Shown piece by piece: positions 10,804 to 64,000 of a stretch of DNA of 64,000 nt. Every line of letters begins with the position of its first letter. Position 1 is the stretch's first letter. The notes under the pieces were generated by a model that made no database searches, was not told the origin of the DNA, and worked only from the letters and a program-made list of their open reading frames with translations. Position numbers and translations under genes: made by a program. The DNA comes from Amphiscolops sp. MND2022. Lineage: Eukaryota. The stretch lies in assembly GCA_964187785.1 (NCBI GenBank), contig OZ076409.1, forward strand, positions 38,814,001 to 38,878,000, given 5' to 3'.

Positions 10804-11327
10804 AAGAAAATGTTGCAAGTGGAAATAATTTGAATTATCCTTGCAAAGAAATGATTGAATGGTTGTTTTTACTTTTAATATATCAAGTATTATAAAACAA
10901 TGTCCTGCGCGCTCAGCGCCCGGAGTGTATATAGTAGGAATTGCATGACAATCAAAACAATTCAAGTCATGTTACTAAAAATACCCTGTGTCACTTCTAA
11001 AAATAGCAGTTACTATATATAGCCATGAGGGCGGCGTGGCGAAAGAATCACTTCAAATGGCCGGTTCAAACACAGCACCTCCAACATTACAAATAGTGAG
11101 CACTAGGTCTGAATGCCCGAAAAGGGCCTTTCAATCATGCATGTAGTTTCATCAACACTTCATGTAATTGAATCTGAACTTCAACCTTTTACATATTGAA
11201 TAATACATGTCCAAATGTGCACTTTCGACATTATGTCTCAATCATGGATAGCACTAATAGTTTGATCATTCTCATAGAAAGAAATAATACTGCATCAAAA
11301 GCAACCAGTATTGAATGAAAGACACAG

Positions 11328-13004
11328 TTTTGCGTCTGCAAGGTAAACTAACAGAAATACTTACCAAGCTTTACGACGGCCTGGTTGACAACTTGCGGAC
11401 AATTTCTCAATTTGATTGGTCCAGGAAAGGCACTTGCAGGTTCTTTTGCACTCGGTAAATTCCGAATATCCTTCTTTCTCTAATTCAGGACAATAACTTT
11501 TGTATAGAACTTTAGATTTTAGAATGTAACCAATTCCACTTAAAGCTTTAGAACTCAAATGGACGTTGTCTCTCTTCAAGTGTTTGTCACTATAGATCTG
11601 TCGGGAAATACCTCTGACTTTCTAATCTTCTTTACGCGAGGCTAGTAATGCATTCACAGTTTTTGATCTTTGAGGTAAAGAATGCCGTAATGGAATACCA
11701 ATAACAAAAACTCTTTTAACTCTAGTTAGTAAGAAGTTAGCTAGGTCTGATAATTCTTAAGTTATATCCTCTGCAGATTTTGTGGAGGGGACGTTATTGC
11801 AGAAAAGGTCGTTACCTCCAATGAAAAGAACAACAGTATCGTAACTGTCCTTTTTCGGGATAAAACTATAAACGTGTCTTACGCAAGCTCCTGGTAGCGA
11901 TAAGACGTTGAAGTTAGCAATATCAAGTCCTTTACCTTGACTATCGGCAATTAGCAAATTTCTAGTCCTAGATGATTTGAAAAGATGATACCGCATCTAT
12001 TTTCAAGTTAAAACACAGCTGGCGTTGCTAAGAATAAGTTTTCGAAGTCGGTGAAGCAATTACTGCATCTTTGACTTTAACTTATTCTGTTTCACAAACA
12101 TAAAGTAGCTTTGGAGCTCTAAATTGTGAATATAGGAATCAACTTAGCTGTCCTGATGAAGAGTAGTTTCTGTTGATCTGCTGAACCAATTGATCGATCC
12201 CAATCCTCTTCTCCACGATAACAATCTCAAGCAAAAATATCGCAACTGTATGCAATATAATAAAATGACGTTGGAATTTCGAAACAATACAATATCACTC
12301 GTTCAACTCCAAAAAAGCTCTTCAATAGCCAGAGTTAACTGAAAAAATTGTACGAGAAACTTCCAAGCTTTCACTTTCTTCAATACTTGAGTAACAAAGT
12401 CGACTGATTTGAATCCCTACTTGGTTGCTCTGTGTTTTAGTAGGAGTTAACTCTGGTTACTTTTTCATACGGGAAATACCAAATGGCGGATGTTTGTGGT
12501 TAAATTTACCATCACCATGCAGGCACCTTGATATATAGAATAAGCAGAAACAAACTATTTAACTGGGCTAGATGTATACACCAAAATATGTAAAAGTATT
12601 TATAAAAGGCATACATTTAAGCAAGATTAAGGCATACATTTACACATGTTATTTGCTATAGATTAATCAACGATGTTTGTAAATGGTGCTGTTGGATACC
12701 CAGAGCACCCAGGTAGCCCAAATAAGGAGCTCGTAACGACTTTAACACTTTAAACAAAGATTATAGTTCAAATATACTCCTAAATTAAGGAAAGGGTCAA
12801 AATGGGGACGTAAGACAAGAATTTAAAATTTTTGTCTTCGATTTTCAATTTTTTAGCCTAAATCTCTCATTTGGGTCAAAACATGTTGATTGGGCGAAAA
12901 CTAGCACTCAAATTCAATTCTACACATTTTAACAGCATTTGAAATTGGCTAACTTGACTTATTTTTCATTCAATTTTTTCGGAACAAATTTTGAGGCGCG
13001 AACA
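11328..13004 (-). repeat. 3' LTR of BEL element (1677 bp)
   Basis: Near-identical to 20809-22418; TGTT start after the PPT, CAAAA end, followed by the TSD. Confidence 0.93.
11361..11996 (-). pseudogene. SGNH/GDSL hydrolase (esterase)-like ORF inside the 3' LTR; two in-frame stops
   Basis: One frame, reading through TAA and TAG: LLIADSQG (block I), LPGA (II), FIGGNDL (III), DNVHL (V). Confidence 0.8.
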
Positions 13005-16000
13005 ATGCCGGCCCCGTTTTCAGCTCGAAAACGCTTTTCAAAAAGTGGCGCCAGTTTAACCACAGGTCGTTTCAGGGTTCCATCGACAGTTTTGATTAGT
13101 GCTGATCTCACAATACCATCTTTTCCAGGGAATACTTCCATGACTCGCGCCATCTTGTAGTGAGACCTTCTAACATTGTCTTCTATCAGCCAAACAAGAT
13201 CTCCAACTTGAATATTTGGCTCTGACTTGTTCCATTGTGCTCTTACATTGTTCTGAGGAAGGTATTCTTTCACCCATCGGTTCCAAATCATGTCTGCATA
13301 AGCTTGGCTTGATCTAAACATCTTTCTATGGTTAGCATAAACCTCTGCGTTTGGAATAAAGGGAATGCAAACATTCGCTCGACCAATAATAAAATGGTTC
13401 GGTGTAAGTGCTTCAAGATCTTCAGGATCATCGCTTGCTGGAGTAATAGGACGCGCATTTAATGTTTGTTCCACTAGGCACATAGTTGTCAATAAACTTC
13501 ATCTGTAAGAGATCGATTACCCAATATAGCCACCATTGACTTTTTGCATATTCGAACTAATCTCTCCCATGCACCACCAGAATGGGGTGCACCAGGAGGG
13601 TTAAACTTCCATACAATGTGCTTCTGAGCAAGCTCTGACGTTATTTGATCTTGATTCCATGAGTTGCTGTACTCCTTCAACTCTCTTGCTGATCCAAAGA
13701 AGTTAGGACCGAAATAATCCATCCCAACGTTGGTGAACGGATATGACTGATAATCAAGTCTCTCTGGGGGTAAGTCGGCCATGAACGGGGTTTTATTCTG
13801 TGCACGTACTTTGCGACAGAACACACAACTAGTTTTAACACTTCTCAAAGCGTTTCGTAACCCTATTATCCAAAATTTTTGTTGAATAACACTTCTCACA
13901 TACTCTACACCTTCATGATTGTGTTCGAAGTGTAGATCTCGCAACATGGTCATTACCATGTCGTGTTCAGTAGATAGCAATACTGGGTGACGCTGTTCGA
14001 AGCTCAAGTTGGCATGTTTGATGCGACCCCTAATTCTGATAACTCTTTTTTCATCGAAGAAGGGTGCAAATTTTGATAGATTTCCGCCTTTTTTAGTTTT
14101 ACCGAAACTTTCCTTCTCATCAAAAAGGTCCGGGAAAGATTCTTTCTGAATCATTTTCAAAACTCTTTCTTCTGCTTGATTCAATTCTTCAACAAGTAAA
14201 ACTTTAGATTGACTTTTATACTTCAACCGCAAACAAAACGCGATAACACGGACGCATTTCGAGAAACTATTAAATTTTTTCCAATCAACAGGTGGCTCCT
14301 GAGTCATACTTGTGTTCGCAATTACTGCAACTTCAACATGATCATCAGAAATCACGTGAATTGGATGCAAAGATAACGGCCAATCCTCAGGCTGGTCTTT
14401 CAACCAAGAAGGTCCGGTTAACCATTCGCTTTCAGATAACTTTTCTATAGTTATCCCACGAGTTCCAATGTCAGATGGATTCAACTCGCCACGGATATGT
14501 TTCCATTCATCAATGGTGGAGTTTTCCAAAATTTCAGCTGCTCTATTGGCAACAAAGACATTCAGCTTTTTGTCCGCTGAGTTTAACCATTGCAATACGG
14601 TAACGGAATCTGTCCAATGAGTAACACCATTAATAGGTAAATCGTGTTCTTGAATGATCAACTTTCTCAACCTCACAGAATACAAGGCTGCTTGTAGCTC
14701 TAGACGAGGAATAGACAACTGTTCGATAGGAGCTATTCTGCATTTGCCCAACACAAAGGACACTTCGATGCCATCTTCGAGTTCTCCTCGAAAATATGCA
14801 ACAATGCACCTTGCTTCCAAAGAGGCATCACTGAAAATATGTAACTGCACGTTCTTGGGGATATTGGAAAAATACTTCCGGGAAAGAGATGTCTGCTTAA
14901 TTGTCTGCATTTCTTGTACCCACTCGAAGAATATTCTCTTATCTTCTTCACTGATATTTTCGTCCCACGACTGACCAAAACGGATCCAAATACTCTTCAA
15001 AAGCATTCTCATTCGCATGGTAAACGGTGCGAAGATTCCCATGGGATCAAATACAGATGAAACAAAGGATAGTACCACTCGTTGCGTTACTTCTTGTGGA
15101 CATTCTTTGTTTGGTCCTCGGCAGACTTGAAGACTATCCGAATCTCTGATCCATTCGAGACCTAGGATGGGCGATGAATCCGCATTCAATGTAAATTCAT
15201 TAGATTCCAGATGGTCTTCCGAGGGGATAACTTCAAGCACTTCAGGGCAATTGCTCGCCCATTTTTTTAAAGTAAACCCACTGCGCTTCAGTGTTTCCAC
15301 TAACTGTTGATAACATTCAATGGCCTCTTGTGGTGTATCAACACTCTTGACAAGGTCGTCCAATTAGAAGTTTCTGTCTCTTGTAGCGGCTGCTACAGGA
15401 AACTTCGTTTTGTTTTCCCTACCGCCTTGTTGGAAACCATAATTGGCACACGTTGGGGAACTCTTTGCTCCGAACACATGCCTATTATACTCGAAAACTC
15501 CAATGTTATCTTCTGGCTTATCTCGCCAGAGAAAACGTAGAACTCTACATTCTTCTTTCGGAACTGCTACTTGCAAAAACATAGACTCTATATCGGCAGT
15601 GATTGCTATCAGGTGCTCTCTGAACCTGAAAACAATTCCCACAAAGTTGCGCAATAATTCAGGTCCACTGAGAAGTTTGTCATTTAGCGAAACGCCTCTA
15701 AATTTTGAAGCCGCATTACAAACCCTTCTGACCTTGCCTGGCTTATGTGGATGTTTCGCTGGGTGATGAGGTAAGTACCATTGCATATCATTCTCTGTTC
15801 TGGAAACTTCTTCCTGATCCAGTTTTCGAACAAAATGGTTTTCCAAGTCCTTCTCAATGGTAGCTTTGTAAGCTTCTTTCAATTCAAGGTCTTTCTCCAA
15901 CCTTTTTTCCATCGACAAGAACTGCTGATATGCTGAGTAAAAATTGTTAGGCAGGTCGGGATTGTCATCAGCCCACATTAAACCAACTTCATAACGTTCA

Positions 16001-16575
16001 CCGTTATGCTTTGTTGTTCTTTCTAAAATTGACAGTGCTCTCTTTTCTTCTTTGGATCGACCAGAGACATCACACACTGACGCGTATGTCGCCATGTCCC
16101 ACCATTTTTTCATCTGATTTGCCAGTGGGTCGGGTGCAACTGAAAGGTTGCAAGAAACCGATATGTTACTTGTTTCCTTTTTTGGCAAGGCTCCGCTAAT
16201 GGTCCAACCCAGTGCTGTTGTAACTGCCCATGGTTGATTTCTTTCGCCAGATATGTATTCCAGCGGCCTGATCAAATGATAAGCATCCTGTCCGAAAATC
16301 ACTTTAACATCAGTCATTGAGACTTTATTATTAGGCAGATCAGATAAGTATTGGTACTCTTCTTTTAGTTTTCTGAGATCGTAGTCTTTTTCACCAACAT
16401 TTAGGTTAGGATGACTGCAGAACGTTGCAGTCTCTCCAGCCGTTTCTGCTTCGCTGGAACCCACTTTGGCTGTTACTATTTGCGTTTTCAAATCAGACAA
16501 ACCATGAATGCAAGCAACGGACATTACGGACTCTTTATCTTTCAACCTGAGAAGATCAACCAAACTTTGATCCAT
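12959..16575 (-). pseudogene. BEL pol: protease C-part, RT, RNase H, integrase (disrupted)
   Basis: WYLPHH, DIESMFLQ, FGAKSSP, NF*LDDL (catalytic Tyr changed to stop at 15364), FSDAS, IPRLELQAA, WTDS, DYFGP joined directly to NFFG (integrase core deleted), LTPNHF. Confidence 0.92.
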
Positions 16576-18565
16576 TAACGAAACAGTGGATCCGGTATCA
16601 CAGAGCGCAATGGTTCAACGCATCGTTTTTCATTACCTATCGAAATAGGAATCAGCTGTAAGAAACAGTTGTTGCCTGTCGACATCATAGAAGAGCTGCC
16701 GGCCCTGCTTTGAGGCGCCGAGTTTTCTGTTTTCTTGTCATTGGTGACCTTATCTATTTTCAGCGCATCAGAGTGTAGAAGCCTGTTGTGTTTCTTAGTG
16801 CAACCATTCACACCGCAGACACGTTCTGACTTGCAGTCTTTAATCAGGTGAGAATTAAGACAACAGAAACAAAGTTTCAGTTTTTTCAACGTTTCATATC
16901 TTCCGTTGACAGCTTGCTGTTTGAATTTGTTGCACATCCAAATTTTATGATCGCCATCTTTCAATGGACATTGCTCACTAGAAGTTGATGTTGGTTTACC
17001 TTGGTCATTGGCAGCAAATGTTGACGTCTTAACCTTTTCGGTTGATCCAGTGGCTTTTTTCTCAAATGGTGTTTTGAATTGCACCATCATTTCATCATGC
17101 ACATAGGCAACTTCATATAGCCACTCGCTAAATTTGCAAAGATCTGCATTATAGTAGCTTTTGCTTTTTGCAAGGAAAAACCATTTTGTTTTCAATTCAG
17201 GAGGTAACTTTCTCAAAGCTGAATTGAGGACTGACTCCATCGACAAGAACTGCTGATATGCTGAGTAAAAATTGTTAGGCAGGTCGGGATTGTCATCAGC
17301 CCACATTAAACCAACTTCATAACGTTCACCGTTATGCTTTGTTGTTCTTTCTAAAATTGACAGTGCTCTCTTTTCTTCTTTGGATCGACCAGAGACATCA
17401 CACACTGACGCGTATGTCGCCATGTCCCACCATTTTTTCATCTGATTTGCCAGTGGGTCGGGTGCAACTGAAAGGTTGCAAGAAACCGATATGTTACTTG
17501 TTTCCTTTTTTGGCAAGGCTCCGCTAATGGTCCAACCCAGTGCTGTTGTAACTGCCCATGGTTGATTTCTTTCGCCAGATTTGTATTCCAGCGGCCTGAT
17601 CAAATGATAAGCATCCTGTCCGAAAACCACTTTAACATCAGTCATTGAGACTTTAATATTAGGCAGATCAGATAAGTATTGGTACTCTTCTTTTAGTTTT
17701 CTGAGATCGTAGTCTTTTTCACCAACATTTAGGTTAGGATGACTGCAGAACGTTGCAGTCTCTCCAGCCGTTTCTGCTTCGCTGGAACCCACTTTGGCTG
17801 TTACTATTTGCGTTTTCAAATCAGACAAACCATGAATGCAAGCAACGGACATTACGGACTCTTTACCTTTCAACCTGAGAAGATCAACCAAACTTTGATC
17901 CATAAACGAAACAGTGGATCCGGTATCACAGAGCGCAATGGTTCAACGCATCGTTTTTCATTACCTATCGAAATAGGAATCAGCTGTAAGAAACAGTTGT
18001 TGCCTGTCGACATCATAGAAGAGCTGCCGGCCCTGCTTTGAGGCGCCGAGTTTTCTGTTTTCTTGTCATTGGTGACCTTATCTATTTTCAGCGCATCAGA
18101 GTGTAGAAGCCTGTTGTGTTTCTTAGTGCAACCATTCACACCGCAGACACGTTCTGACTTGCAGTCTTTAATCAGGTGAGAATTAAGACAACAGAAACAA
18201 AGTTTCAGTTTTTTCAACGTTTCATATCTTCCGTTGACAGCTTGCTGTTTGAATTTGTTGCACATCCAAATTTTATGATCGCCATCTTTCAATGGACATT
18301 GCTCACTAGAAGTTGATGTTGGTTTACCTTGGTCATTGGCAGCAAATGTTGACGTCTTAACCTTTTCGGTTGATCCAGTGGCTTTTTTCTCAAATGGTGT
18401 TTTGAATTGCACCATCATTTCATCATGCACATAGGCAACTTCATTTAGCCACTCGCTAAATTTGCAAAGATCTGCATTATAGTAGCTTTTGCTTTTTGCA
18501 AGGAAAAACCATTTTGCTTTCAATTCAGGAGGTAACTTTCTCAAAGCTGAATTGAGGACTGACTC
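15908..18565. repeat. 1328-bp tandem duplication spanning gag C-terminus, protease and pre-RT region
   Basis: 15908-17237 repeats as 17236-18565; the junction fuses QQFLSME to SVLNSAL through a TC microhomology. Confidence 0.93.
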
Positions 18566-20456: not shown

Positions 20457-20788
20457 TTCATCCTTAGACGCCCAAAACTTTATACAAAAATTGCCCTTAT
20501 CGACCCAAAGAACTGGATTGTTTGACTTTATAGCAAGTCATGTTCCATATTTCGAATGGTCGAGACAATGTCAACTACCCGTTTTTCATGATTGATCCTG
20601 TCACTCAACGTGGATGAGTTTTTTAACGAATCCGAAAATGGGACTTTTCTTTCAGTTCCATTTTTTGACACGGTCATGAATTGAGGATCATAAAGCCCAC
20701 CTTCAGCCATTGTCTTTTGTTTGTTTCACAGTGGTCAGATAGGCAAATTTCACAAAAGCTCAAATGGGTTAAATTTGCAGAGTGCCTT

Positions 20789-20805
20789 CTCGTGTCGCGG
20801 CACCA
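20789..20805 (-). promoter_or_regulatory. primer-binding site, tRNA-His-like (TGGTGCCGCGACACGAG)
   Basis: 3 nt downstream of the 5' LTR end; TGGTGCCG core. Confidence 0.7.
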
Positions 20806-20808
20806 AAA

Positions 20809-22418
20809 TTTTGCGTCTGCAAGGTAAACTAACAGAATTACTTACCAAGCTTTACGACGGCCTGGTTGACAACTTGCGGACAATTTCTAAATCTGATTTG
20901 TCCAGGAAAGGCACTTGCAGGTTCTTTTGCACTCGATAAATTCCAAATATCCTTTTTTATCTACTTCAGGACAATAACTATTGTATAGAACTTTAGATTT
21001 TAGAATGTAACCAATTCCACTTAAAGCTTTAGAACTCAAATGGACGTTGTCTCTCTTCAAGTGTTTGTCACTATAGATCTGTCGGGAAATACCTCTGACT
21101 TTCTAATCTTCTTTACGCGAGGCTAGTAATGCATTCACAGTTTTTGATCTTTGAGGTAAAGAATGCCGTAATGGAATACCAAGAACAAAAACTCTTTTAA
21201 CTCGTTATTGCAGAAAAGGTCGTTACTTCCAATGAAAAGAACAACAGTATCGTAACTGTCCTTTTTCGGGATAAAACTATAAACGTGTCTCACGCAAGCT
21301 CCTGGTAGCGATAAGACGTTGAAGTTAGCAATATCAAGTTCTTTACCTTGACTATCGGCAATTAGCAAGTTTCTAGTCCTAGATGATTTGAAAAGATGAT
21401 ACCGCATCTATTTTCAAGTTAAAACACAGCTGGCGTTGCTAGGAATAAGTTTTCGAAGTCGGTGAAGCAATTACTGCATCTTTGACTTCAACTTATTCTG
21501 TTTCACAAACAAGGTAGCTTTGGAGCTCTAAATTGTGAATATAGGAATCAACTTAGCTGTCCTGATGAAGGGTAGCTTCTGTTGATCTGCTTAACCAATT
21601 GATCGATCCCAATCCTTGTGTCCACGATAACAATCTCAAGCAAAAAAAACGCAACTGTGTGCAATATAATAAATTGACGTTGGAATTTCGAAACAATATA
21701 ATATCACTCGTTCAACTCCAAAAAAGCTCTTCAATAGCCAGAGTTAACTGAATAAATTGTACGAGAAACTTCCAAGCTTTCACTTTCTTCAATACTTGAG
21801 TAGCAAAGTCGACTGATTTGAATCTCTACTTGGTTGCTCTGTGTTTTAGTAGGAGTTAACTCTGGTTACTTTTTCATACGGGAAATACTAAATGGCGGAT
21901 GTTTGTGGTTAAATTTACCATCACCATACAGGCACCTTGATATATAGAATAAGCAGAAACAAACTATTTAACTGGGCTAGATGTATACACCAAAATATGT
22001 AAAAGTATAAATAAAAGGCATACATTTAAGCATGATTAAGGCATACATTTACACATGTTATTTGCTATAGAATAATCAGCGATGTTTGTAAATGGTGCTG
22101 TTGGATCCTCAGAGCACCCAGGTAGCCCAAATAAGGAGCTCGTAACGACGCCTTTAACACTTTAAACAAAGATTATTGTTCAAATATACTCTTAAAATAA
22201 GGAAAGGGTCAAAATTGGGACGTAAGACAAGAATTTAGAACTTTTTGTCTTCGATTTTCAATTTTTTAGCCTAAATCTCTCATTTGGGTCAAAATATGTC
22301 GATTGGGCGAAAACTAGCACTCAAATTCATTTCTACACATTTTTACAGCATTTTGAAATTGGTTAACTCGACGTATTTCTCCTTCAATTTTTTCGGAACA
22401 AATTTTGAGGCGCCAACA
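20809..22418 (-). repeat. 5' LTR of BEL element (1610 bp)
   Basis: TGTTGG start, homologous to the 3' LTR except for a 70-bp deletion and scattered substitutions. Confidence 0.93.
20842..21407 (-). pseudogene. second copy of the SGNH hydrolase ORF, in the 5' LTR (70-bp deletion)
   Basis: MRYHLFKSSRTRNLLIADSQGK...FIGSNDL; lacks the equivalent of 11723-11792; shares the TAG stop. Confidence 0.75.
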
Positions 22419-22866
22419 CACAGCTAAAGCACCTCATATTCAATTTTGGACTCAGTGTCCACGCGCCTTTGTTTGCTAGCATATCAAGTACTATTTACGG
22501 CATATGGCCCTTAAGTCCTTTAATTAAAGCACAGCACATTGAGTGAATAAACGAATGGCGCGCTAGGATTGGCTGAATAATTGGACGGACTGCGTGTCTA
22601 GCGAGACAGGAGAGGAAACATTTGAACTCGTTTCCTCTACCTGTACGCCTTGGTGTCCAATTTCTCAGCTAATATATGCTTGTACATAACTTTACACGTG
22701 TGAATAGGTAAGTTCCAACTTTGTTACAATCAACAGAACATTTTACATGATTATTCTCATTTCGACTTTAAGATCATAAAGACTACAAGTAGAACGTTAC
22801 ATAAGTAAAAATCATATATAATAGAACGAGTTTGTAGTTTATGAATTTTGTATGAACATCTTTTTT

Positions 22867-30060: not shown

Positions 30061-33000
30061 TGTGGCATGACGTCACCTTATGCAGAAACATACATGTATT
30101 CTATAAATAGTAGCCATGACAGTTTTGTACCTGTCAGAGATGCTACTGCTAGAAACCATGCTGTTCTATTCACAAACCTTTGAATTACGCTTATCGATCA
30201 GAATAGATTATTCAGCATACACATTATCTTTATCTCTTTTCAAGAAGATACAACATGGCGCAGTAAAGCAAGATGGAAAATCAAAAAGCAACCGAAAGTG
30301 CAGGCTCTTCAAGTGGAGAAATCCACGAAAGAGCAAACTCGAAAACCGAAAAGACTCACCAGAAAATTACCTTACCAACATTCGAAAAACGCGGGATACA
30401 GGAGGCGAAGCTTTGGTGGAGGCGATTCACACAATACATCAAAATGACCGAAAACATCGATCTTAACATAATGACCACAGATCGTGAGATACTAGAAGAT
30501 TACAAGAATGATCTGGAACACCGGATCAAAGATCTGTTTATTTGTGCATTGGGCGAATCAGCGATAACGGAGATGACAAGAACCGTTAGAGACAACGACC
30601 CAAATCGAATGGACATAAATCAACTGTACTCATTATTCCGGTTACATTTCATACCGGAACGAAACAAATTCCATAGTAGAGCCGATTTCTTTGGAATAAC
30701 GAGAGAAAAACACGAATCAGCGGAAGATATGTGGACGAGAATCCTTCAAGTGGAAAAGAATTGCGAGTTCGAGAATGTAACACCAACCGAACTAATAGCG
30801 TCAAAGTTTCTCTCCGTAATTGGAAGATCAACAGGAGACTACGAACTAAAGAAGAAAATTAGAAAAAGTGACATGACGATAGAAACAATAACAGCACTGA
30901 TACACGAACACATGTACGATCGGCTAAATGACTCGAACAATTCGAACGATGGAAAAGAAATAAAACACGTACAAGAACGACCATACAAACGAAAATGGAC
31001 AGAAAAAACCGATGCAGACAAAATGAAGAGAAGACCGGAATACCAAAAACAAAAACCAAAAGACAATCGTTGTGGACAATGCGGAGCACCCAACTGGTCA
31101 AGACAACACATCTGCCCAGCAAAATCAGCAGAATGTAGAAAATGTAAAAGAAGGGGTCATTACGAAAAGATGTGCAGATCGATGAGAAGAGTACAATACG
31201 TCGACAAAACAACACCTTCAGCAGAAGAAGATAATTGGGATTATGAAAAAATCCAGAGGATAGAAAATACAAAACAAAAGAAAGGCTTCTACAACGCCAC
31301 GCTATTGAACAACAACGTACCAATAAAATTCATCATCGATAGTGGATCACCAGTAACACTTATTCCGGAATGCTTGTTTAGCAAAATTACACCAATTGAA
31401 CCACTCAAAACCACTTACAAACAAAGATGTAAACAATCAAAAGATTGGCTTTACAGGACAAACAAAAGCAATGGTCAAAACAAACAAAGAAACAATGGAA
31501 CTACCACTACTAATTACAAAAGCACAAACCGCCCCGTTGATGGGACTGGACTGGATGCAACGGCTGAAAATAAACCTGAATTCAAACAACGACGCAATCC
31601 AAATACACAACATAAATTTGGACAACACAGAAATAAAAATCATAAAGCTCCAGAACGATTTCAAAGATTTATTCTACAACAACAAAGAGATAAAGAATCT
31701 CTCGGTGAAAATAAATCTAAAAACTGGAGCACAAATAATACAACAAAAAGGACGACCAATCCCAATACATCTACAAGACCAAGTGGAACAGGAGCTGAAA
31801 CGCTTAATAAAGCATGGTTATGTAGAAAAAGCAACAGAAATCACCGAAAACTGCTTCGTAAGTCCTGCGGTAATATCCGTAAAAAAGGACAAATCGATAA
31901 AAACTGCACTTGATTCCAGAAATTAAACGAAATTACTGTGAAAAGAAAAGCACAAATGCCGAACATGGAAGACTTGATATCACGAATTTCAAGAAAGATA
32001 TCCGAAGGAGAAGACGGAGAAGTACTAGCAACAAAGCTCGACTTCGATTATGCATACGGAAAAATTAAATTAGACGACGATACAAAAAATTTGTGCATAT
32101 TTACCGTCACAGGGGGCAATTTCACTGGATATTACCGTTTCTTGAAAGGCTTCTATGGACTGGCAGACATTCCAACAATTTTCCAAGAACGGATAGATAC
32201 GACATTAGAACACAAACATCCGGCCTGGTTAGACGATATAATAATTGTCACCATAGGAAACTTGGAAAAACACGAAATGGAAGTACGTGAAACAATGACG
32301 AAACTGGAAAGAGCAGGATATAGATTAAATCCAAACAAATGCGAATTCTTCAAGGAAGAACTCGAATGGGTTGGCCACAAAACCGACCAACAAGGGATAT
32401 GACCTTTACAAGACAAATTGGACGCAATAAAAAAGATCAACATACCAAAAAACGAAAAAGAACTAAAATCATTCATGGGAGCAATTCAATACTTGTCGAA
32501 AAACACGAAAACCTATCAAAAAATACGGACATACTACGAAAATTATTGAAAAGCAAAAGAAAGGATCTGGACAGAAGAACACACAAAAGCCTTTAATAAC
32601 TTGAAAGAATGCATCACAAAAATCCCATGTCTAGCACATTACAACGCCCAAAGCGAAAACATAATTACGACACGCCAGCACAAAAGTCTTGGGTGCCACG
32701 CTTTGGCAAAAACAAAAATCCGGCGAATTAAAACCAATCGGATTTGCAAGCCGATATTTATCCGATACCGAAAATAAGTACGCAAAAAACGAATTGGAAT
32801 TGTTAGTCGTAGTATGGGGTCTAGAACACTTTAGACTGTACATCTACGGAAAACCAATCGAACTCTTAACAGACCATCAAACGCTTGAACCACTGATCAA
32901 AAGAAACAGATCAAACAAAACCTATAGCGCGAGACTGACAAGATGGTTAGATCGCTTGGCTCACTTCGACATTAATATAAAACACATTGCCGGAAAACAT

Positions 33001-35963
33001 TTAGCACTAACGGATTATTTGAGTAGAAATCCAATATCAAGTCCGGAACCAATCGAAAATTACGACGAAGAGTACGTAATTAATTGCATAACACAACTAC
33101 TCGAGTTCATCAACAACTACGGCAGCATTACCGGTAAGATGAACAAAGAAGCGCGAACGGACGATATTGAGAAGTGTGAACGAAAATTCAACCAATCAGA
33201 ATCGAGCAAGCGGAACGAACCGAAATCAGATTGGAACACAACAAACAAGCGCAGTTCGTTGCTACCTCAACTCAATACAGTCGATCGCAATACCATCAAC
33301 AACGTGAAACACAATCACGAAACAATAATGGACATTCGCCGCATTGAACAAATTGAAGCAGACGATCCCTCCGATGAAACTCAACAACTTGTGAACCGCT
33401 GGAAAGAATTAGTAAAACCCGGAGAATACCGAACGTCGAAAGGAAACTGGAAAAAATACAATCCCCCAAGACATCACAGAGCGGAAATAAAAAGAATCGA
33501 GATGAATCTAAACCAAAGAAGAAACAAAATGCTCTGGAAACGCATGGAAGAGCAAGAAAAAGAACACGAAGATGACACCACAAAAAGAGAAGAACTTTAC
33601 CGAGTCATAGAAAAAATCAGAAACATGCCTAAAAAACAAGATGAAGAACAAACGGAAACAACAAACGACAACATAACGGAAGCAGGAAGCCAATCAGAAA
33701 CAAACGAAACAGAATCAACTGACTCCGCAGACTCACTTGATGTACCAGCAATTAATTTCAAAAGATATCTCGGTACGACCGGAGTGAGATACATCCAAAT
33801 GGGACAGGCCAGTCACATTCAAAACGAAAACAAATGGGACCTAGAGGAAACCATCAGACAAGCCGAACAAAAGTTTACCACGGACTAAAAAACAATTGCC
33901 ACAGAAACAACGAACGATGAGAAGCTGTTAAAAACACTAGTATGCTTGGAAAGAAGGACGCTGGAACAAATACCGGACGAATACAAAACATACTACAAAC
34001 AGCTGTCAACACGATTCGGCGTAGTATTCTACGATGACCGAATCATAATACCAAAGTCATTGAGAACAACAATTATCATGCTGTTACATAAAGGACACGC
34101 GGCAATCAACAAAATGACGAGAGCGGCAAAACCATTCTGGTGGCCACGAATGACACGAGATATACAACAAAAATGTGACGAGTGTGTTCCGTGCAAAATG
34201 GCAGGTAAGAACATTAAACCACAATTACCAATGACTGAGATTAATTACTTAGAACCGGTAGAGAAAACAAATCAAGAAATCCAATTGGATTTCATCGGAC
34301 CAATAAGATTTAAGCACCGGAGATTTTACATATTACTTTCTATAGACCGGTACAGCAGATGGCCGGCCGCGTGCATATGCGAAGCACCGACAGGAAAAAC
34401 AGCAAAAAATTTCCTGGAACAATAAATTACACTAAACGGTTTACCACAAACCATCAGAACAGATAAAGGCACTGCCTTTCCTGGAAAAGAGTTTAGAGAA
34501 ATCTGTAAATCTCTAAACATAAAGCTAATATATGGAACGCCATATATACACACACCAACCGGATTGGTGGAAAGAGGTATTAGAACTCTAAAAGAACACC
34601 TCAGAACGAATTGAGAAGAAGGTTATAATATAAACGAAGCATTAAGCCGTTCACTAAACGTAATGAGAACAACGGTCCATTCCAGCATAAAAGAAACACA
34701 GTTCGAACGCCATTATGGCAGAAAACACCGAACGGAAATTCATAACTATTTGAATATATCACCAAACAAACATTATAATGTTTCAGCGAGTCCGGAGACA
34801 CTACAAGTCTACACATTCACCAATGGGAATGGAGCTTACGACCAACTGGTTATGAAAGCCCCAAGAAAGCTAAAAGAAGACGTGAGTAACAAATTCCCAT
34901 ACTTATTTCTCGAAAAGAAACAATACAAAGAAAAATTTGAAAGCGCATACGAAAACAAACCACAAACCGCAGTAGCCGGAAAAAACACACAAAAACAACC
35001 GATAAAAACAAAATAATCCATAGAAAACGGATAAGCAAACCATTGAACCCAATATTTCAGAACCCATTATCACGACGGGGAGAAAACCCGAGGGGAAAGG
35101 ACGGAAGATTCCTACAACAAGGACAACTGGTTGAAGACATAGAGGAACAGGACGTAACAGCGGAACATTCAGAGAGATGCAGTACCACAATACTAGAGGA
35201 AAACATACTGGACAAAACACTGGAAATTGAGAATACAACAATCAGTCCAGTGTACGGCAGAGGACGAAGAAAATTGATAGGGGACAGAAAACAAAACACA
35301 ACCACAACAACAGGATCGACAATAAACTCCAGACCAACTACAGAAGACGACCCAAACATGATAACAGTAGTAGACCAAAACGGTAATAATAACAATCTAA
35401 TAAAAACGGAAAACATAGAACAAACTGAAAACCAAAACGAACAAAATATACGAAAGTCAACCAGAATAAGATCCGCTAACCCAATAATTAGATATGGTAA
35501 TCCAATCACGTTCTGACTATTACAGGTAACACCGTTAACAAATGGAGTGCGCAAGACAACCAGTAAAAGAGGAGGGAGCAAACGACCGGAAAACAGAAAG
35601 AAGGAGATTTCAGAAAGGAAAGAAGAGGACTATACGGAACAAACCGTATATAAAACAATCATAAACATCTGGACCATTCGGTGCTACCGTTTGAATTTTG
35701 AGTTCATTAGTGTATTGACTATTTATGTTTATACATGTAGTTATCTCCCATTTATATACAAGGGGGAATGTGGCATGACGTCACTTTATGCAGTAACATA
35801 CATGTATTCTATAAATAGTAGCCATGACAGTTTTGTACCTGTCAGAGATGCTACTGCTAGAAACCATGCTGTTCTATTCACAAACCCTTGAATTACGCTT
35901 ATCGATCAGAATAGATTATTCAGCATAAACATTATCTTTATCTCTTTTCAAGAAGATACAACA
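30061..35963 (+). mobile_element. full-length Mag-like Ty3/Gypsy retrotransposon with decayed ORF
   Basis: 195-bp LTRs at 30061-30255 and 35769-35963 (TGT...ACA, 4 substitutions), TSD GTGTT, PBS TGGCGCAGT, PPT AAGGGGGAA. Confidence 0.96.
30273..35516 (+). pseudogene. gag-pol with multiple frameshifts and stops
   Basis: CGQCG...HICPA...CRKCKRRGHYEKMC; IIDSGS; HPAWLDD; ELELLVVVWGLEHF; HKGH...CVPC; LDFIGP, RTDKG, LVERG. Confidence 0.92.
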
Positions 35964-38500: not shown

Positions 38501-41500
38501 TGTTGTCATACCAGCATGATGGAGATACAGAATTACTTCAGATACAAAAGTTAGGATACATAATATGTATTGCAGTCAGATATATTTATGTCATATATAC
38601 AGAGTCTTGAGGCAAAATGAAGCCACATAATAAGGTTTATGGCTGTGAGCAACACTACGGTAATTATGCACTCACCCCCTTTCTAACGAGTCTTGAGTTT
38701 TATATTATCCATTGTTGTATTCTCTAACTAACTTGTGAAAGAGAGATTTTGTATAGTAAAATTCAACTTGCTTTCTAGTACGCTTTTTCTATCATTGAGT
38801 ATTTTACTTCGTCTGCACTTATGTGGCATGGCAGTTACTTTTAAATTAATATAAACAAGTACAAAATTATAAACAGACTAATTAGTTTCTAGAGTAAGTT
38901 TGTCTGTCCTCTACATTCCCCCCTCTACTATTGGCTGATGATCCGGTTGTTCCTCCACTGGTCCAGTGTTTGGTGGGCGGTAGACCGCTCCCGGCTGTTG
39001 TATGTGTTACGGTGATTGACTGTCCGTAACGTCTGTATTTTTTCTTGTGACTGGTTTAGAGGCTGTTGTCTTCCCCCTCCTGTCCGTCTTACATTTGGCT
39101 CGGTGTGAGGCCCGAGTTCAGCCTTTCTACGGTGTGACCTGTAATCATGACAGATTGGGTTATTACATCTCAAAATGGGATTCGTTTTTGTCAACCTTTT
39201 TGATCTGCGTATAGGTTCTTTTTCTTCGGTTTCAATTTCAGTACTGGAGCTCAAGTTACTTGCTAAGTCTAGTTCAGAGTTTTCCAGATTATCTCCAAAT
39301 GTGCTCGGGTGTGGTTTATCATCAGTAAAAACCTTACCGTTTTCGTCCCGTATAAAACTTCCTAGTCAGCGCTTTTAGCGTCTTCTATGGAACGGTCTAC
39401 TTCCGTCTCCGTCATGCTTGTGGTTACTATTGTCAGTGGGCCCATGATGCGTGGGTTTGTTTGCTTGCGTTCCATATCCTTGCGTGGGTTTGTTGTCGGG
39501 GCTGGTTTTTAGCGAATTTGGGCTGGTTCGATCTCTGATCAATTTGGGCCTGCCTCGGCCGATTGAGCCTCTCTTTCTGACCGTACTGTTTGAGGATTCT
39601 GTGGTCTTTGGGTTCACCAGGTCCATCAACGGTACTTCTGAATCATCCTCGGAGTCGATCACCATTGCCCGTCTCTGTTTGGATGGTGATCTGATAAACC
39701 GGCCGTCTGATCCGCGTGGTCCGGTTCCTCTCTTGTTGGTCTCCTGGTTAAATGTTTCAATTGGTTTACTAATCAGTTTTCTGTGTATTAATCTTCCAAT
39801 ATGTGTAGTTACGGTATGGTTTGTGCCCGATATCGCTAATTGTGGTTTATGGGCATATGCACTTTCGAACTTATTTCGTTGGTGTTTCTTTTCTAAAACT
39901 ACAAAAGGATAGTTACTTACTCCCTTTGTGCTTTTCTAGGGCTTCATGGGTACCTGGTCGGACACACCGCCAGCTCCATTGACGGAATATACCTGTAAGG
40001 TATCTGGTTTGGCTAAAACGGAACGTTTTGTTAGTTTTTCTATTTCATCAAGGTTTAGTAAGTTACTTATCACCGTATTTGGTTTTCTGCCGTAGTGTAA
40101 TTCAAAGTCAGATTTTTCAACCGTTTGTGTGGCGTTTTTCTCATTACATCTATGGATATGTCCAGGGCTTTTCCGAATCGTTCTCCGGCCTTTATGTTAG
40201 TTAGGAGGTTTTCTTTCAAATTTCTAACCACCCGTTCTACTAGGCCGGTGGGTGTGTGTATATACGGTGTCCCGTATATTAGTTTGATATAATAATGTTT
40301 TTTAAAGAAGTCTCTGAAAAGGCGTCCCGTACCGTAAAGGCAGTTGCTTTATCCGTCCTAATTGTTTTCCGTACACCGTTTAGTCGGATGTATTGCTCAA
40401 GGAATTTTACTGCCGTTTCGCCGTCCGTAGATGCGCAAAAACTCGCGGCTGGCTATTTACTGTACCGGTCTATGGACAGTAGAGTGTAAAATCGACGGTT
40501 GCGTTCCGTGATCGGTCCGATGAAATGCAATTGGAATTCTTCGTTTGGATTATTTAACGGTGGAAAGCTATTTTGTCTCCGTATTTGAAATGTTAGGATT
40601 AATGTTTTTGCCGGACATTTTGCAGGGTAGACAAGACTCACACTTCTTTTGTATCGCCTCAGTCATCCGTGGCCACCAGAAGTGTCGTGCGGCGAGAGTC
40701 ATTTTGTTTATGGCGGGGTGGCCCTTGTGCAATAAACTGATGACGGTTGCTTGGAGATTCTTTGGGGCAAAAATCTTGTCCTCGATGAAAACCAGACCGA
40801 ACCTGCTCGATAGTTTCTTTCTGTGCGTCTGGTATTCTTCTGGTATTAGCTCGTGCTGTTGTCATTCCAGACAGACCAAAGTTTTTAGTAGGATCGGGTC
40901 GTTGGTGGTTTCCGTCATCAGGAGTTGCAGGTCCGTTGAAAAGTTTTTATCGGTCTTGCGAACAGCTTGTTCGAGATCCCAGTTATTTTCTTCCTGCGCT
41001 GCTATTCTTGGGGTATGTCCCATTTTAACATATTGGACACTTTTTACCCCTACGTATCATGCCCAGTTCCAAGCGGGTACTTCCAGGACCGATAGGTCCT
41101 GGTCCGTCTCGGAGTCGATTTCGCCATCTTCCATCGGTACAGGGGCGAGTTGCTGGTTTATGTTCGTCGTGGGTGATGGTCCGGTTGGATTTTGTTGTTG
41201 TTGGGCCGGTGTTGGTCGATCTAATTCCCAGAAGGGGTCTACGGTCCATTGCTCTGACCGTCTCGTTTGAGGTTGGAAACCTCCCCTTTGCTGTGGACCA
41301 ATTTTCTGTCGTATGTCGCTTTGTTCCCGGCCCTGCATTATTTGTTGTAATCTTTCTTCGATTACCTTCCGTTCATGTCGCAAGAATTTTGGTGCGTGGT
41401 ATTTCTTCCACTTTCCCCCGGTTAGGCGGTAGATACCGGGCTTGACAATATCTTTCCACCGTTGTATTAACTCGGTGGTTTCGGCTGATGAATCAGTGGC

Positions 41501-43625
41501 TGCAATATGGTCAATGGTTCTAATATCCATTGTCATTTTCGAGTTGCTTTTGAATTTTGGATTTGAAGAAGTGGTACGTGTTAACGCTGTGTTGTTAAGG
41601 CAATCAATGGCGGTTTGTTCACGCGTTTCTCTTGACCTAAGCTTATTGTTTGTTTTGTGTTCGGTTGCGTCCGTTCCGCCTTCTGATTGGTCAGATTGGT
41701 GGCTAAGGCAACCGTGTTTAGTGATGAACTTGTAGTGCGGTAGGATGTTATTGATGACGTATTCTTCGTCGTATGCGTCATCCGTTTGCAGCGGCGCTGT
41801 CGGGTTTCTACTCAAGTAAGACGTGAGTGCCAAATGTTTGCCTGCGATATGGTTCACGTTGATTTGGAAATGTGCTAATCGGTCAAGCCACCTTGTCAAC
41901 CGCGCGCTGTATGTTTTACTGGACCGGTTTCGTTTGATGAGCGGTCCTAGTGCTTGGTGATCCGTAAGTAACTTGATCGGTTTACCGTAAATGTACAATC
42001 GAAAGTGTTCTAGTCCCCAAACGACGGCCAGTAGCTTGAGTTCGGTAATGGCGTATTTTTTTCGGTGTCAGATAAAAATCGGCTCGCGAAATCGATTGGT
42101 TTTAATTTTCCGTCTGGCTGTTCTTGCCATAGTGTCGCACCGAGGCCTTTTGTACTGGCATCGGTTGTTATCACGTTTGGATAGTCTGAATTATAATGAG
42201 CCAGACACGGTTTTTCAGTGATCTTTTGCTTGAGATTTTCGAATGCTTTTGTGTGTTCTTCAGTTCATATCCTTTTAGTATTTTTTTCAGTAGTTGTCTC
42301 ACGCTATCCGTTTGTGCTGATAAAATGTGGATGTATTTGGATAGGTATTGAATGGCTCCCAAGAAAGATTTGAGCTCTTTTTCGTTGTTGGGCCTTTTCA
42401 ATTCTTTTATTGCCATCAGTATATCTTGCAGTGGTCTGATTCCATTTTAGTCAATTTTATGGCCAATCCATTCAACCTCTGTTTTGAAAAGTTCGGATTT
42501 TGTTCAATGAGTTTGTGTCCGGCTTTTTCCAGCCGTGTTAAAACGTCTATTAGTTCCTTTTTGTGTTGTTCTTTGAACCTTTGGTTACGACTATTATGTC
42601 GTCTAGCCATGCTGGGTGTTTGTTTTCTAGGGTCTGGTCAATTTTTTCTTGAAATATCGTTGGTATGTTCACTAACCCGCAAATCCCTTTCAGGAAACGG
42701 TAGTAACCGGTAAAGTTCCGGGCTTCTCTGGACAGAAATAAGCTGGCCGTTCGCGTAGTCAAGCTCAAACTTCGAAATCCAGATTTCATCTGCCAGTCCG
42801 TCCGCAATTTTTCTGGAGATTCTGGAAATTAACTCCTCCGTGTTAGGCATTTGTGCCTTTCTCTTGATGGTGATTTTGTTTAGTTTTCTCGAATCTAGGG
42901 CAATTTTTACCGACTTGTCCTTTTTTACGGTTATTACTGCCGGACTTACAAAACAATTTTTGTCTACGTTGTTTGCTTTTTCGATGTGGCCCTGTTTCAT
43001 TAGCTTGTTAATTTCTTTTTCGGCCAATTGTTGTAAGTGAATCGGTATTGGTCTTCTTTTTTGCTGTATTAGCCTTGCATCTTTTTTTAGCTGTATTTTC
43101 ACTTCTATTTTCACTTCAGTCCGTCCACGGTATGGTTTTCATGGAAGAGTTTTTTGAACTTTCTTTTTAGAGTGGTAATGTCCGGATCTTCAATGATGTG
43201 GTTTACTTGGGGACCGGTTTTACCGATGTCCAGCGTTTTTCCCAATTTTTTCATCCAGTCCAAACCTAACAGGGGATTGGTTTTCTTTGTAGTTACCAAG
43301 ATTTCCAGATCGTTCCGTTTTCCATCGGTTTCTATTATTGCGATTGGTTTTCCTTCGAATTTAATCCTGTTATCATTTACGTCTCTGTATTCAGTTTTCA
43401 GCGGTTTCAGCGGTGTTATTCCGTTGAATAGTGATTTCGGTATTAAAGTTACCGGTGATCCGCTGTCTATTATGAATTTGATTGGTCGGTTATCGACCAA
43501 TGCGGTGAGAGTGAAGAAATCTGGGCCGTCTTTATTCATTTGACGCGTTGAATGGATCTTTTAGTTGATGTAATGGATTTTGTTCGGTGACCAGTCATCT
43601 TCTTCCGCACTACTTGGAATCGTGG
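38501..43625 (-). mobile_element. 5'-truncated, decayed Mag-like Gypsy related to the 30-36 kb element
   Basis: SAEEDDW gag end, IIDSGS, HPAWLDD, RLTRWLDRLAHF, integrase fragments; PPT AGAGGGGGGAA then putative 3' LTR 38915-38501 (TGT...ACA). Confidence 0.9.
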
Positions 43626-44039
43626 TAAAATTGATGAGGGTCTAAACTGCTTTCAAAGGTAGAACTGCGTCTTAATGAAACCTGCAAACCTTTGCAGGGC
43701 AGCATTGCCGGCAAATTTAGGATGCATTTTCAAGGCAGCCCCTATAAAATTAAATCGAATCAGTAAAGTTTTAATACAAGGACGTTTCCTTGCAAATTTT
43801 ACAAAATAATGAAAAATTAGTTTGGTAACCTACAAAAACTTTCAAGAAACTACAAAAATTCAAGCAGTTTCGACCAGAGAAGCGAACTCCAAAATACTAA
43901 AGAGAAGTAAATAATTAGTGGAACACTCTGTTCTTACATTACACAGAGCGAGGTTAGTGTTTGATTCAATTCGAGGAGCACTCCCATTAAATTAGGTTGC
44001 TCCTCGATGAGTTTGTTGTTTCATACGTATGTTGTTCCA

Positions 44040-45462: not shown

Positions 45463-46447
45463 AACAAGTCGCCCGCTAAACACTGGGATATTTTCCGCTA
45501 AAAATGTCACGCATCAGCACGTGTTCGAATCCACGTCCTCGTGTCTGCTAGGCAGACACACTACCAACTGCGCCATGGTGACTAATGGTGACTAGAATTT
45601 ACGGGGTACGAAAAACTCAACACATGAAAACTCAACACAAGAAAACTCAACACAGAAAACTCAACACAAAAACTCAACGCATTTCAACACATTCAATTAA
45701 TTTTAGTTAACACCTCAATTGAATTTATTTTCCGAAATCTAACAAATTGCTAAATCTGGGTTGTTTCCGTTTACACTTAGTTACAGTTGCGACTCATTTC
45801 AAAGACATATAAAGACGTATTGATTTCCTTTACACCTAGTCATGATTGCTACTTTTTCCAATATTAAACTGTTTTTCACGTTGAAACGTTGTTTACATTG
45901 GCGCAAACCTTGAAACAAAACGATTAAAAAAGGGTTTAAACGCAAACACAAATATTTTTAAAAAAATTGTCAAATGCATAAATTATGAGCAGTACAAACA
46001 AAGAATATAGATGTATAATATATATCACGATTAATAAATGCTTAAAATGTGTTGAGTTTTCTGTGTTGAGTTTTCGTGTGTTGAGTTTTCTTATGTTGAG
46101 TTTTCTGCGTTGAGTTTTCTTGTGTTGAGTTTTCTTGTGTTGAGTTTTCTTGTGTTGAGTTTTCTTGTGTTGAGTTTTCTTGTGTTGAGTTTTCTTGTGT
46201 TGAGTTTTCTTGTGTTGAGTTTTCTTGTGTTGAGTTTTCTTGTGTTGAGTTTTCTTTTGTTGAGTTTTCTGGCAATCGAATTTACTAAATGGATATATAA
46301 AGTGGAGATTTGGCAGTTCAAGTAACTGAAATAGTCAAGTAACTAATATAGTCTAGTGAAGATGGAGATTGTGGAGATTTGGCAGAATTTGGAAAAAACC
46401 GCTACACAGATTATGATTTTCCTCCTGCATTATATGTGGGCGGAAAA
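45463..46447 (-). mobile_element. family-B Helentron-like element with tRNA-like segment, interrupted by a foldback element
   Basis: 45463-45600 and 46290-46447 are the reverse-complement homologues of the two halves of 7433-7749. Confidence 0.7.
45603..46277. mobile_element. foldback/Mutator-like non-autonomous element with arms made of 15-bp tandem repeats
   Basis: Left arm (GAAAACTCAACACAA)n, right arm its reverse complement with ~15 units; exact 8-bp TSD GAATTTAC at 45595-45602 and 46278-46285. Confidence 0.85.
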
Positions 46448-62514: not shown

Positions 62515-62690
62515 GCTGAAAAGATCAATTTCTGTTTACTTTTATTCTTATTGCTTGCCAACATCCTCCGGGCCCAAGAAGATGTGGAGAAACGGATCAA
62601 TCAAACAAAAACTTATTTTTTACATGTTACATGAAATATAATAATGATAATAATGTAAATAATGTACGGTGAAATGAAGCAAAAACAAAG

Positions 62691-63974: not shown

Positions 63975-64000
63975 ATTACTTCTTTCAACTTGGAATGATT

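What the first reader, a model, noticed from the sequence alone, without database searches (positions are those of the whole stretch)
11361..11996. SGNH/GDSL hydrolase gene built into both LTRs of a BEL/Pao element
Seen: two short track ORFs (11757-11996 and 11361-11579) are one 211-codon frame split by a TAA and a TAG. It has SGNH blocks in order, IADSQG / LPGA / GGND / DNVH, plus a Cys-rich tail (ECKRTCKC). It lies wholly inside the 1.68-kb LTR, in sense orientation, and recurs in the 5' LTR (20842-21407). Established: SGNH esterase domains occur in ORF1p of CR1/L2-type LINEs and as extra ORFs in some bdelloid-rotifer LTR elements. Inference: an enzyme gene inside the LTR itself is unusual; it would be duplicated at each cycle and left behind in solo LTRs, and might serve a lipid/membrane or env-substitute role. 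The TAG is in both LTRs, so the parent copy was already mutated.
Basis: partly seen in the sequence, partly recalled or inferred. Interest (0 to 1): 0.85.

Follow-up and report, generated by a model that had tools for sequence, protein, structure and literature searches.

The report
Esterase gene inside retrotransposon terminal repeats
An animal BEL/Pao retrotransposon carries an SGNH-hydrolase gene inside both of its long terminal repeats; this copy is broken, but a sister family has it intact and under purifying selection, so it is likely a real accessory enzyme in a place where retrotransposons normally keep only regulatory DNA.

Summary
Confirmed and strengthened. The minus-strand frame 11996-11361 lies wholly inside the 1,677-nt 3' LTR (13004-11328) of a decayed BEL/Pao element and recurs in the 5' LTR. 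Read with X at its two stops, it folds as an SGNH hydrolase (pLDDT 84; VIA Z 16 to a sialate O-acetylesterase, Z 15 to PAF-AH). It belongs to a large family of stand-alone ~195-208-aa proteins (202 hits at E<=0.001); 120 of 154 full-length rows keep all five catalytic residues S-G-N-D-H. A second family (L001, 68% identical) has an intact ORF in the same place: integrase end, PPT, LTR containing the ORF, PBS. Window versus L001 gives dN/dS about 0.10 while the non-coding LTR barely aligns. So it is an inherited element gene, not a nested LINE fragment. It has no signal peptide or membrane anchor, so it is not an Env substitute. Its place relative to U3-R-U5, its activity and its role are untested, and LTR residence is shown by DNA for only two families. 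Precedents: SGNH ORFs in LINEs, Ngaro and rotifer Vesta elements; MMTV sag in an LTR. Ten literature searches found no BEL/Pao esterase and no enzyme inside an LTR. The LTRs also end in AA, not CA.

The parts
20809..22418 (-). 5' LTR (1,610 nt), begins TGTT, ends AAAA
11328..13004 (-). 3' LTR (1,677 nt), begins TGTT, ends AAAA; 3.5% divergent from the 5' LTR
11361..11996 (-). SGNH hydrolase ORF in the 3' LTR; family-length part 11996-11406; broken by in-frame stops at codons 80 and 125
20884..21407 (-). SGNH ORF copy in the 5' LTR; 70-nt deletion near 21204, same TAG, block III substitution
12040..12078 (-). 39-nt block about 45-80 nt upstream of the ORF start, the best-conserved non-coding LTR stretch against L001 (82%, E 1e-5); holds GCAGTAA(T/G)T, a candidate splice donor or start site (inferred)
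11336..11364 (-). GTAAGT...pyrimidine tract...TTGCAG unit (29 nt; 30 nt in L001) just before the LTR end; candidate splice donor and acceptor (inferred); also at 20845-20817
20788..20805 (-). primer-binding site beginning TGGTGCCGCGAC, 3 nt after the 5' LTR (tRNA-His-like from recall, not tested)
   Evidence: same start in L001
13005..13020 (-). polypurine tract before the 3' LTR
   Evidence: conserved in L001
12959..20710 (-). decayed gag-pol (DUF1759, Asp protease, RT, Peptidase_A17, integrase Zn domain, DUF5641); frameshifts, stops, a ~59-codon gap in integrase; its stop lies 46 nt inside the 3' LTR
15908..18565 (-). internal 1.33-kb tandem duplication, 99.5% identical (recent or assembly artefact)
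22419..22423 (-). target-site duplication CTGTG, 5' side
11323..11327 (-). target-site duplication CTGTG, 3' side

Best explanation
The LTR of this BEL/Pao lineage contains a ~196-codon SGNH-fold gene that two families have kept under purifying selection, and it likely encodes a soluble, active accessory esterase that works in trans for the element, most likely on acyl esters at membranes or on the particle. Shown: the position inside both LTRs, the fold, the retained S-G-N-D-H residues, an intact ORF at the same position in L001, dN/dS about 0.1. Inferred: the ORF most likely lies downstream of the promoter (R/U5; about 50%, against about 35% for U3 as in MMTV sag). In that reading the unspliced LTR-initiated RNA has the esterase as its first ORF, and splicing from the conserved block upstream of the ORF to the acceptor at the LTR end gives an ATG-free leader for Gag-Pol. 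Reverse transcription copies the gene into both LTRs, and LTR-LTR recombination would leave it in solo LTRs. The enzyme is not needed in cis, because the parent of this insertion already carried the TAG. The basic, anchor-less protein with a His/Cys tail (predicted metal site) would, by analogy with the ZfL2-1 ORF1p esterase, tie particles to anionic membranes and release them by deacylation.
For: Fold: AF2 pLDDT 83.9 for the X-read window protein and 94.1 for a natural intact homolog; 44 Foldseek matches at E<=0.001 led by SGNH hydrolases; VIA Z 16.0, rmsd 2.2 A over 155 residues to 7pzg. Family: 80 homologs, 202 representatives at E<=0.001; S19 147, G36 146, N62 147, D143 139, H146 141 of 154 rows of 185-215 aa, all five in 120 of 154; three tail Cys in 140-143 of 154. 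L001: integrase end, PPT, TGTT, intact 198-aa ORF, LTR end, PBS. Selection: 191 codons, pS 0.71, pN 0.19, dN/dS 0.10 (bootstrap upper bound 0.19), mismatches 47/35/101 by codon position; four of five control frames give 1.35-2.04, the antisense in-register frame 0.26. Read-through homologs run into the same LTR end and then diverge or enter the PBS (P0018, P0065, P0109, P0257). No ATG lies between the ORF stop and the gag ATG in either family. ZfL2-1 esterase activity and liposome binding: PMC3905857 (passages).
Against: DNA context is held for only two families (window and L001), 68% identical; L001 is one 1.7-kb contig with a single LTR between integrase end and PBS (tandem, circle or collapsed assembly). 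Three more distant multi-member SGNH clusters (42-48% identity) share no contig length with any of eight Pol clusters (at most 15 members listed per cluster); for the distant families the only hint is one frameshifted protein ending in a PBS-like LVP (1 of 343 versus 0 of 236 controls). The contig-length test is confounded if distant Pol clusters come from other genomes. dS is near saturation, so 0.10 is approximate. The window's upstream donor candidate (GTAATT) is imperfect, no polyadenylation signal is conserved (AATAAA in L001 only), and splicing in R/U5 should sometimes yield ORF-less LTRs, which I could not look for. The best structural matches are acetyl-esterases, so the substrate need not be a lipid.
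Confidence: 0.5

Rival explanations
1. Same accessory enzyme, but in U3 like MMTV sag: promoter, R and U5 are packed into the ORF's 3' end and the last ~80 nt, and the esterase is made from a subgenomic RNA spliced from the leader donor (GGTAAGT) to the 3' LTR or from an internal U3 promoter.
For: The ORF ends only ~78 nt before the LTR end; the gag ATG is 99 nt after the LTR with no upstream ATG; a strong donor sits in those last 40 nt. The MMTV U3 holds the sag ORF with its own promoter (PMC9412291, passages).
Against: No TATA-like or AATAAA/ATTAAA motif in the last 80 nt of either family; the upstream TGCAG lacks a pyrimidine tract; the fast-diverging part of the LTR is upstream of the ORF, as expected of U3 (PMC3601003, passages).
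Confidence: 0.27
2. The enzyme is a counter-defence or regulatory protein that removes acetyl or acyl groups from a host factor or nucleic-acid-associated substrate rather than acting at membranes.
For: Closest folds are small acetyl-esterases (sialate O-acetylesterase, PAF-AH, OatA); median pI 9.5 and a His/Cys tail fit nucleic-acid or chromatin binding; the Oskar OSK domain is among the matches (Z 12.4); action in trans fits a host-directed role.
Against: No direct evidence; ZfL2-1 esterase showed no activity on acetylated histone peptides (PMC3905857, passage). This rival concerns the substrate and is compatible with either LTR layout.
Confidence: 0.15
3. The ORF is a passenger: a host gene or a LINE/Helitron fragment that inserted into one LTR and is copied neutrally.
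For: Both window copies are dead; many database copies are truncated; SGNH domains occur in LINE ORF1p and in a Helitron (PMC3905857 passages; PMC4021074 listing only); Atlas look-alikes include animal clusters.
Against: dN/dS 0.10 between families while flanking LTR DNA is unalignable; same position in two families; Met-to-stop stand-alone ORFs with no coiled coil, RRM or poly(A) tail; the search for longer forms gave one weak unrelated hit among 8,000 candidates (weak evidence); ten multi-member clusters below 60% mutual identity.
Confidence: 0.05

Closest known systems
GDSL/SGNH ORF3 of bdelloid Vesta LTR retrotransposons (Rodriguez et al. 2017, PMC5408684; passages and section 3.6 read)
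   Same: SGNH hydrolase with intact catalytic residues, no coiled coil or membrane anchor, carried as an extra ORF by an LTR retrotransposon; role untested.
   Different: There it is an ORF3 (1.3-kb amplicons) additional to gag and pol in rotifer-specific retrovirus-like lineages, with mostly neutral intragenomic variation; here it is a ~0.6-kb ORF inside the LTR of a BEL/Pao element with between-family purifying selection. Sequence relationship not tested.
ORF1p esterase of CR1/L2/RTEX non-LTR elements, ZfL2-1 (Schneider et al. 2013, PMC3905857; passages read)
   Same: Transposon-borne SGNH esterase with conserved active site; model for a membrane role.
   Different: A domain of a multimerising ORF1p with coiled coil in elements that lack Gag; here stand-alone, beside a normal Gag, inside an LTR.
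MMTV sag/naf ORF in U3 (PMC9412291; passages read)
   Same: A protein-coding ORF inside the LTR, hence present twice per provirus.
   Different: A retroviral superantigen, not an enzyme; U3 position known there, unknown here.
Ngaro-like (DIRS order) elements with an SGNH ORF (bioRxiv 10.1101/2021.08.05.455354; passages read)
   Same: Extra SGNH ORF near the 3' end of a retroelement, no proven function.
   Different: Tyrosine-recombinase elements with split direct repeats; ORF described after YR, not in a repeat.
Belpaoviridae (ICTV profile PMC8742986; whole text read)
   Same: LTR-PBS-gag-pol(PR, RT, RH, IN)-PPT-LTR, Pao-specific Pfam domains.
   Different: The profile lists only gag, pol, env and LTRs of 0.2-1.2 kb; here LTRs of 1.4-1.7 kb with an enzyme ORF, no env, and an AA 3' end.

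Membership tests
Belpaoviridae (BEL/Pao) | Two direct LTRs flanking gag-pol, with PBS and PPT | tested here: met
Belpaoviridae (BEL/Pao) | Pol order protease-RT-RNase H-integrase with BEL/Pao-type domains (DUF1759, Peptidase_A17, DUF5641) | tested here: met
Belpaoviridae (BEL/Pao) | RT phylogeny within the family | not tested
   no reference RT set in hand; assignment rests on Pfam domains
Belpaoviridae (BEL/Pao) | PBS complementary to host tRNA-Arg or -Gly (ICTV text) | tested here: inconclusive
   PBS present; host tRNAs not available; likeness to tRNA-His is recalled
Belpaoviridae (BEL/Pao) | Typical, not defining: LTR 0.2-1.2 kb and TG...CA ends | tested here: not met
   1,677, 1,610 and ~1,367 nt; ends TGTT...AAAA in both families; the ORF accounts for the excess length
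SGNH hydrolase superfamily | SGNH alpha/beta/alpha fold | tested here: met
   predicted model; VIA Z 16.0, rmsd 2.2 A, 155 residues
SGNH hydrolase superfamily | Catalytic Ser, Gly, Asn and DxxH in blocks I, II, III, V | tested here: met
   all five in 120 of 154 full-length rows and in the window frame
SGNH hydrolase superfamily | Serine-dependent ester hydrolysis | not testable with these tools
   needs an assay
LINE ORF1p esterase (CR1/L2/RTEX) | Domain of a multi-domain ORF1p upstream of a non-LTR pol | tested here: not met
   stand-alone ORF within LTR sequence in window and L001
LINE ORF1p esterase (CR1/L2/RTEX) | Specific kinship to the ZfL2-1 esterase (structure, transposon-specific residues) | tested here: inconclusive
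   not decided by the listed rows; residues not compared
Vesta-type GDSL ORF3 | Third ORF of the internal region in rotifer Vesta elements | tested here: not met
   pol runs to the 3' LTR with no ORF3; the ORF is inside the repeat
sag-like LTR ORF | ORF present in both LTRs | tested here: met
sag-like LTR ORF | ORF lies in U3 | not testable with these tools
   needs RNA 5' and 3' ends

The most novel reading that the evidence does not exclude
An old BEL/Pao clade has turned its LTR into a self-contained enzyme gene: promoter, esterase ORF and splice switch all lie inside the repeat, so every 3' LTR and solo LTR is a transcribable esterase gene that supplies the element in trans and seeds the host genome with dozens to hundreds of hydrolase copies; this holds for all ten or more families down to about 40% identity, and goes with a non-canonical AA integrase end.
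Probability: 0.3. Interest if true: 0.85.

Novelty: new variant of a known kind. Interest (0 to 1): 0.7.

Why it matters
It adds BEL/Pao to the list of unrelated retroelements (CR1/L2/RTEX LINEs, Penelope/Athena, Ngaro, Vesta) that captured an SGNH esterase, which argues for a general, still unexplained need for acyl-ester hydrolysis in retrotransposition. Here the enzyme is small, stand-alone and separable from Gag, so the question can be tested biochemically. It is also, as far as my searches go, the first enzyme gene inside the LTR of a retrotransposon, so solo LTRs would be gene-bearing and LTR annotation that assumes non-coding repeats would miss or mis-call these copies as host genes.

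Tried and rejected
No whole genome is held, so no genome-wide LTR or solo-LTR census. PDB sequence searches: 0 hits for the single protein, only E>0.07 for profiles. Related-locus scans: viral contigs none with three queries, prokaryote genomes none; the metagenome scan gave 4 loci of 453 candidate stretches, of which only L001 is a family member; L002-L004 are generic SGNH matches. LTR-end pattern: 0 in viral contigs, 12 prokaryote matches with no SGNH-profile hit, taken as chance. Sequencing runs: no RNA holder listed; two DNA runs with small share; their contigs cover parts of ORF, LTR and pol at mostly under 95% identity and those over the first stop do not carry it, but contigs give no transcript ends. 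The ZfL2-1 esterase was not among the listed fold matches, which excludes nothing. No Rfam or tRNA hit. No second SGNH locus in the window, including downstream of the other BEL integrase end at 62715. No homolog or Pol cluster member carried a usable name, so the host is unidentified; a recalled likeness to acoel-worm repeats could not be tested. Earlier scan findings: none. Literature: ten searches, judged from listings, found no BEL/Pao esterase or LTR-internal enzyme; Repbase and subscription journals are not covered, and the supplements of PMC3118150 (BEL sequences, LTR lengths) were not read. PMC3286476 (passages) was irrelevant. No complex prediction was sent since no binding is claimed.

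Full report
Observation. It lies in a direct repeat with copies at 13004-11328 (1,677 nt) and 22418-20809 (1,610 nt), which differ at 56 of 1,605 aligned columns. The repeats are LTRs: a polypurine tract precedes the 3' copy, a primer-binding site follows the 5' copy after 3 nt, and CTGTG flanks the element on both sides. Between them lies a decayed gag-pol with DUF1759, aspartyl protease, RT, Peptidase_A17, integrase zinc domain and DUF5641; a 2,201-aa single polyprotein in the database matches it at 87-97% and shows frameshifts, stops, a gap in integrase and a 1.33-kb internal duplication in this copy. There is no env or ORF3: pol runs to and stops 46 nt inside the 3' LTR. The 5' LTR copy of the ORF shares the TAG, has a 70-nt deletion over the site of the TAA and stops after codon 196, which is where family members end; the last 15 codons of the 211 are read-through.

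What the ORF is. Pfam GDSL hits are below cut-off for the window protein (E 0.0025); 20 of 43 aligned homologs hit Lipase_GDSL_2 at E<=0.01. The AlphaFold model of the X-read protein has pLDDT 83.9 and that of a natural intact homolog 94.1, tail included. Fold searches return SGNH hydrolases throughout: best Z 16.0, rmsd 2.2 A over 155 residues, to a sialate O-acetylesterase, then PAF acetylhydrolase at Z 15. Searches found 80 homologs and 202 representatives at E<=0.001. Of the 343 homolog rows held, 154 are 185-215 aa; among these Ser19, Gly36, Asn62, Asp143 and His146 are kept in 147, 146, 147, 139 and 141 rows, all five in 120, and three tail cysteines in 140-143, usually preceded by His (114). 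These rows are not independent (many are copies of few families). They fall into 31 clusters at 60% identity, 10 with more than one member. Median pI is 9.5; 1 of 154 has a hydrophobic stretch suggestive of a membrane anchor. A search for longer forms gave one weak unrelated hit (weak evidence). The C-terminal residues beyond about 171 have no tested fold match; a metal site is inferred from the His/Cys pattern only.

Is it an element gene? L001, the one family locus retrievable (4 loci from 453 candidate stretches), reads integrase end, PPT, TGTT, about 1,367 nt of LTR holding an intact 198-aa ORF, the same LTR end, PBS and a gag-like start. Against the window, 191 codons give pS 0.71, pN 0.19, dN/dS 0.10 (bootstrap 0-0.19), with mismatches 47/35/101 by codon position; shifted frames give 1.35-2.04 and the in-register antisense frame 0.26. 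The non-coding LTR upstream aligns only in short patches, the best a 39-nt block 45-80 nt before the ATG. Indirect support comes from the printed contig lengths: 8 of 41 contigs with Pol clusters at 73-95% identity to this element also list an SGNH homolog, against 0 of 71 for clusters at 45-48% (one further Pol cluster on short contigs and SGNH contigs under 10 kb were left out); the first census gave 6 of 27 against 2 of 83. Seven contig lengths list two or three SGNH copies. This is confounded if distant Pol clusters belong to other genomes. Against: three distant multi-member SGNH clusters share no contig with the eight Pol clusters examined, so LTR residence of the distant families is unproven; one frameshifted member of a 43%-identity family ends in a PBS-like LVP about 26 codons past the normal end (1 of 343, 0 of 236 controls), a weak hint.

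How it likely works. Shown: the gene is copied with the LTR, is under purifying selection between families, and is not required in cis, since the TAG in both LTRs was most simply present in the RNA that made this insertion (later gene conversion is the alternative). Inferred: a soluble basic esterase acting in trans. For expression, both families keep a GTAAGT...pyrimidine...TTGCAG unit of 29-30 nt at the LTR end, a donor-like GCAGTAA(G/T)T in the upstream block, and no ATG between the ORF stop and gag. No TATA or poly(A) motif fits in the 78 nt after the stop, and the variable part of the LTR is upstream, as U3 usually is (PMC3601003, passages). I therefore favour a promoter upstream of the ORF, with the esterase as first ORF of unspliced RNA and Gag-Pol made after splicing it out (about 50%), over a U3 location as for MMTV sag (about 35%). 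No RNA data bear on this. For the role, the best analogy is the ZfL2-1 esterase, a slow acyl-esterase that binds anionic liposomes and was proposed to tie RNPs to membranes (PMC3905857, passages); the closest folds being acetyl-esterases leaves a host-factor deacetylase open. A fusogenic Env substitute is unlikely without signal peptide or anchor; Rodriguez et al. reasoned likewise for rotifer GDSL ORFs (PMC5408684, passages and section 3.6).

Comparison and novelty. SGNH ORFs are known in CR1/L2/RTEX LINEs and Penelope-like elements, rotifer Vesta LTR elements and Terminons and Ngaro elements. An ORF in an LTR is known from MMTV. The ICTV profile of Belpaoviridae (whole text) and a 62-genome BEL/Pao survey (PMC3118150, passages; the word esterase occurs 0 times; supplements not read) list only gag, pol and env and LTRs of 0.2-1.2 kb. 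Ten searches showed no BEL/Pao esterase and no enzyme within a retrotransposon LTR; Repbase was not searchable, so an unpublished annotation may exist. The element is filed as BEL/Pao on its domains, with LTR length and 3' end atypical; the ORF is filed as SGNH on fold and residues; it is not a LINE ORF1 or a Vesta-type ORF3.

A second oddity. The target duplication places the LTR end at ...GACG(C/T)AAAA, not CA, in both window LTRs and in L001, and three read-through homologs keep the same frame to that point and then diverge. TG...CA ends are near-universal. This rests on one TSD.

Verdict. Real feature; new variant of a known kind. Probability that it is a selected, element-encoded SGNH gene inside the LTR of at least two families is about 0.9; the full mechanism about 0.5. 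Interest 0.7.

Noticed in passing
window 11328-11331 and 20809-20812; L001 1534-1537: LTRs begin TGTT but end AAAA instead of the usual CA, in two families; supported by the CTGTG target duplication and by read-through proteins.
   Followed up: partly
protein P0517 (2,057 aa): A related BEL/Pao polyprotein with two chromodomains at its N-terminus, ahead of Gag (Pfam Chromo E 7e-27); chromodomains are usually reported at the integrase C-terminus of Gypsy chromoviruses.
   Followed up: no
window 15908-18565: 1.33-kb tandem duplication inside the element at 99.5% identity while the LTRs differ by 3.5%: recent duplication or assembly artefact.
   Followed up: partly
window 62715-64000 (-) and 62563-62430: A second BEL/Pao integrase end (53% to the first); its putative LTR starts near 62563 and holds a tRNA-like stretch with A- and B-box-like motifs (seen by eye, not called by ARAGORN or Rfam), possibly a SINE; no SGNH hit there.
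   Followed up: partly
L001 1-1689: A single LTR joins the integrase end to the PBS and gag start: tandem elements sharing an LTR, a one-LTR circle or a collapsed assembly.
   Followed up: no
window 30061-35963 (+) and about 40200-43700 (-): Two Gypsy-like elements in opposite orientation, about 71-78% alike, with RT-RNase H domains; a 195-nt direct repeat at 30061 and 35769 may be LTRs.
   Followed up: no
window 46027-46315: 15-nt tandem repeat array with an inverted counterpart near 45612-45672.
   Followed up: no
L002 125-817: A stand-alone ~200-aa SGNH ORF in a metagenome contig, weakly matching the family profile (E 3e-8); context unknown.
   Followed up: partly
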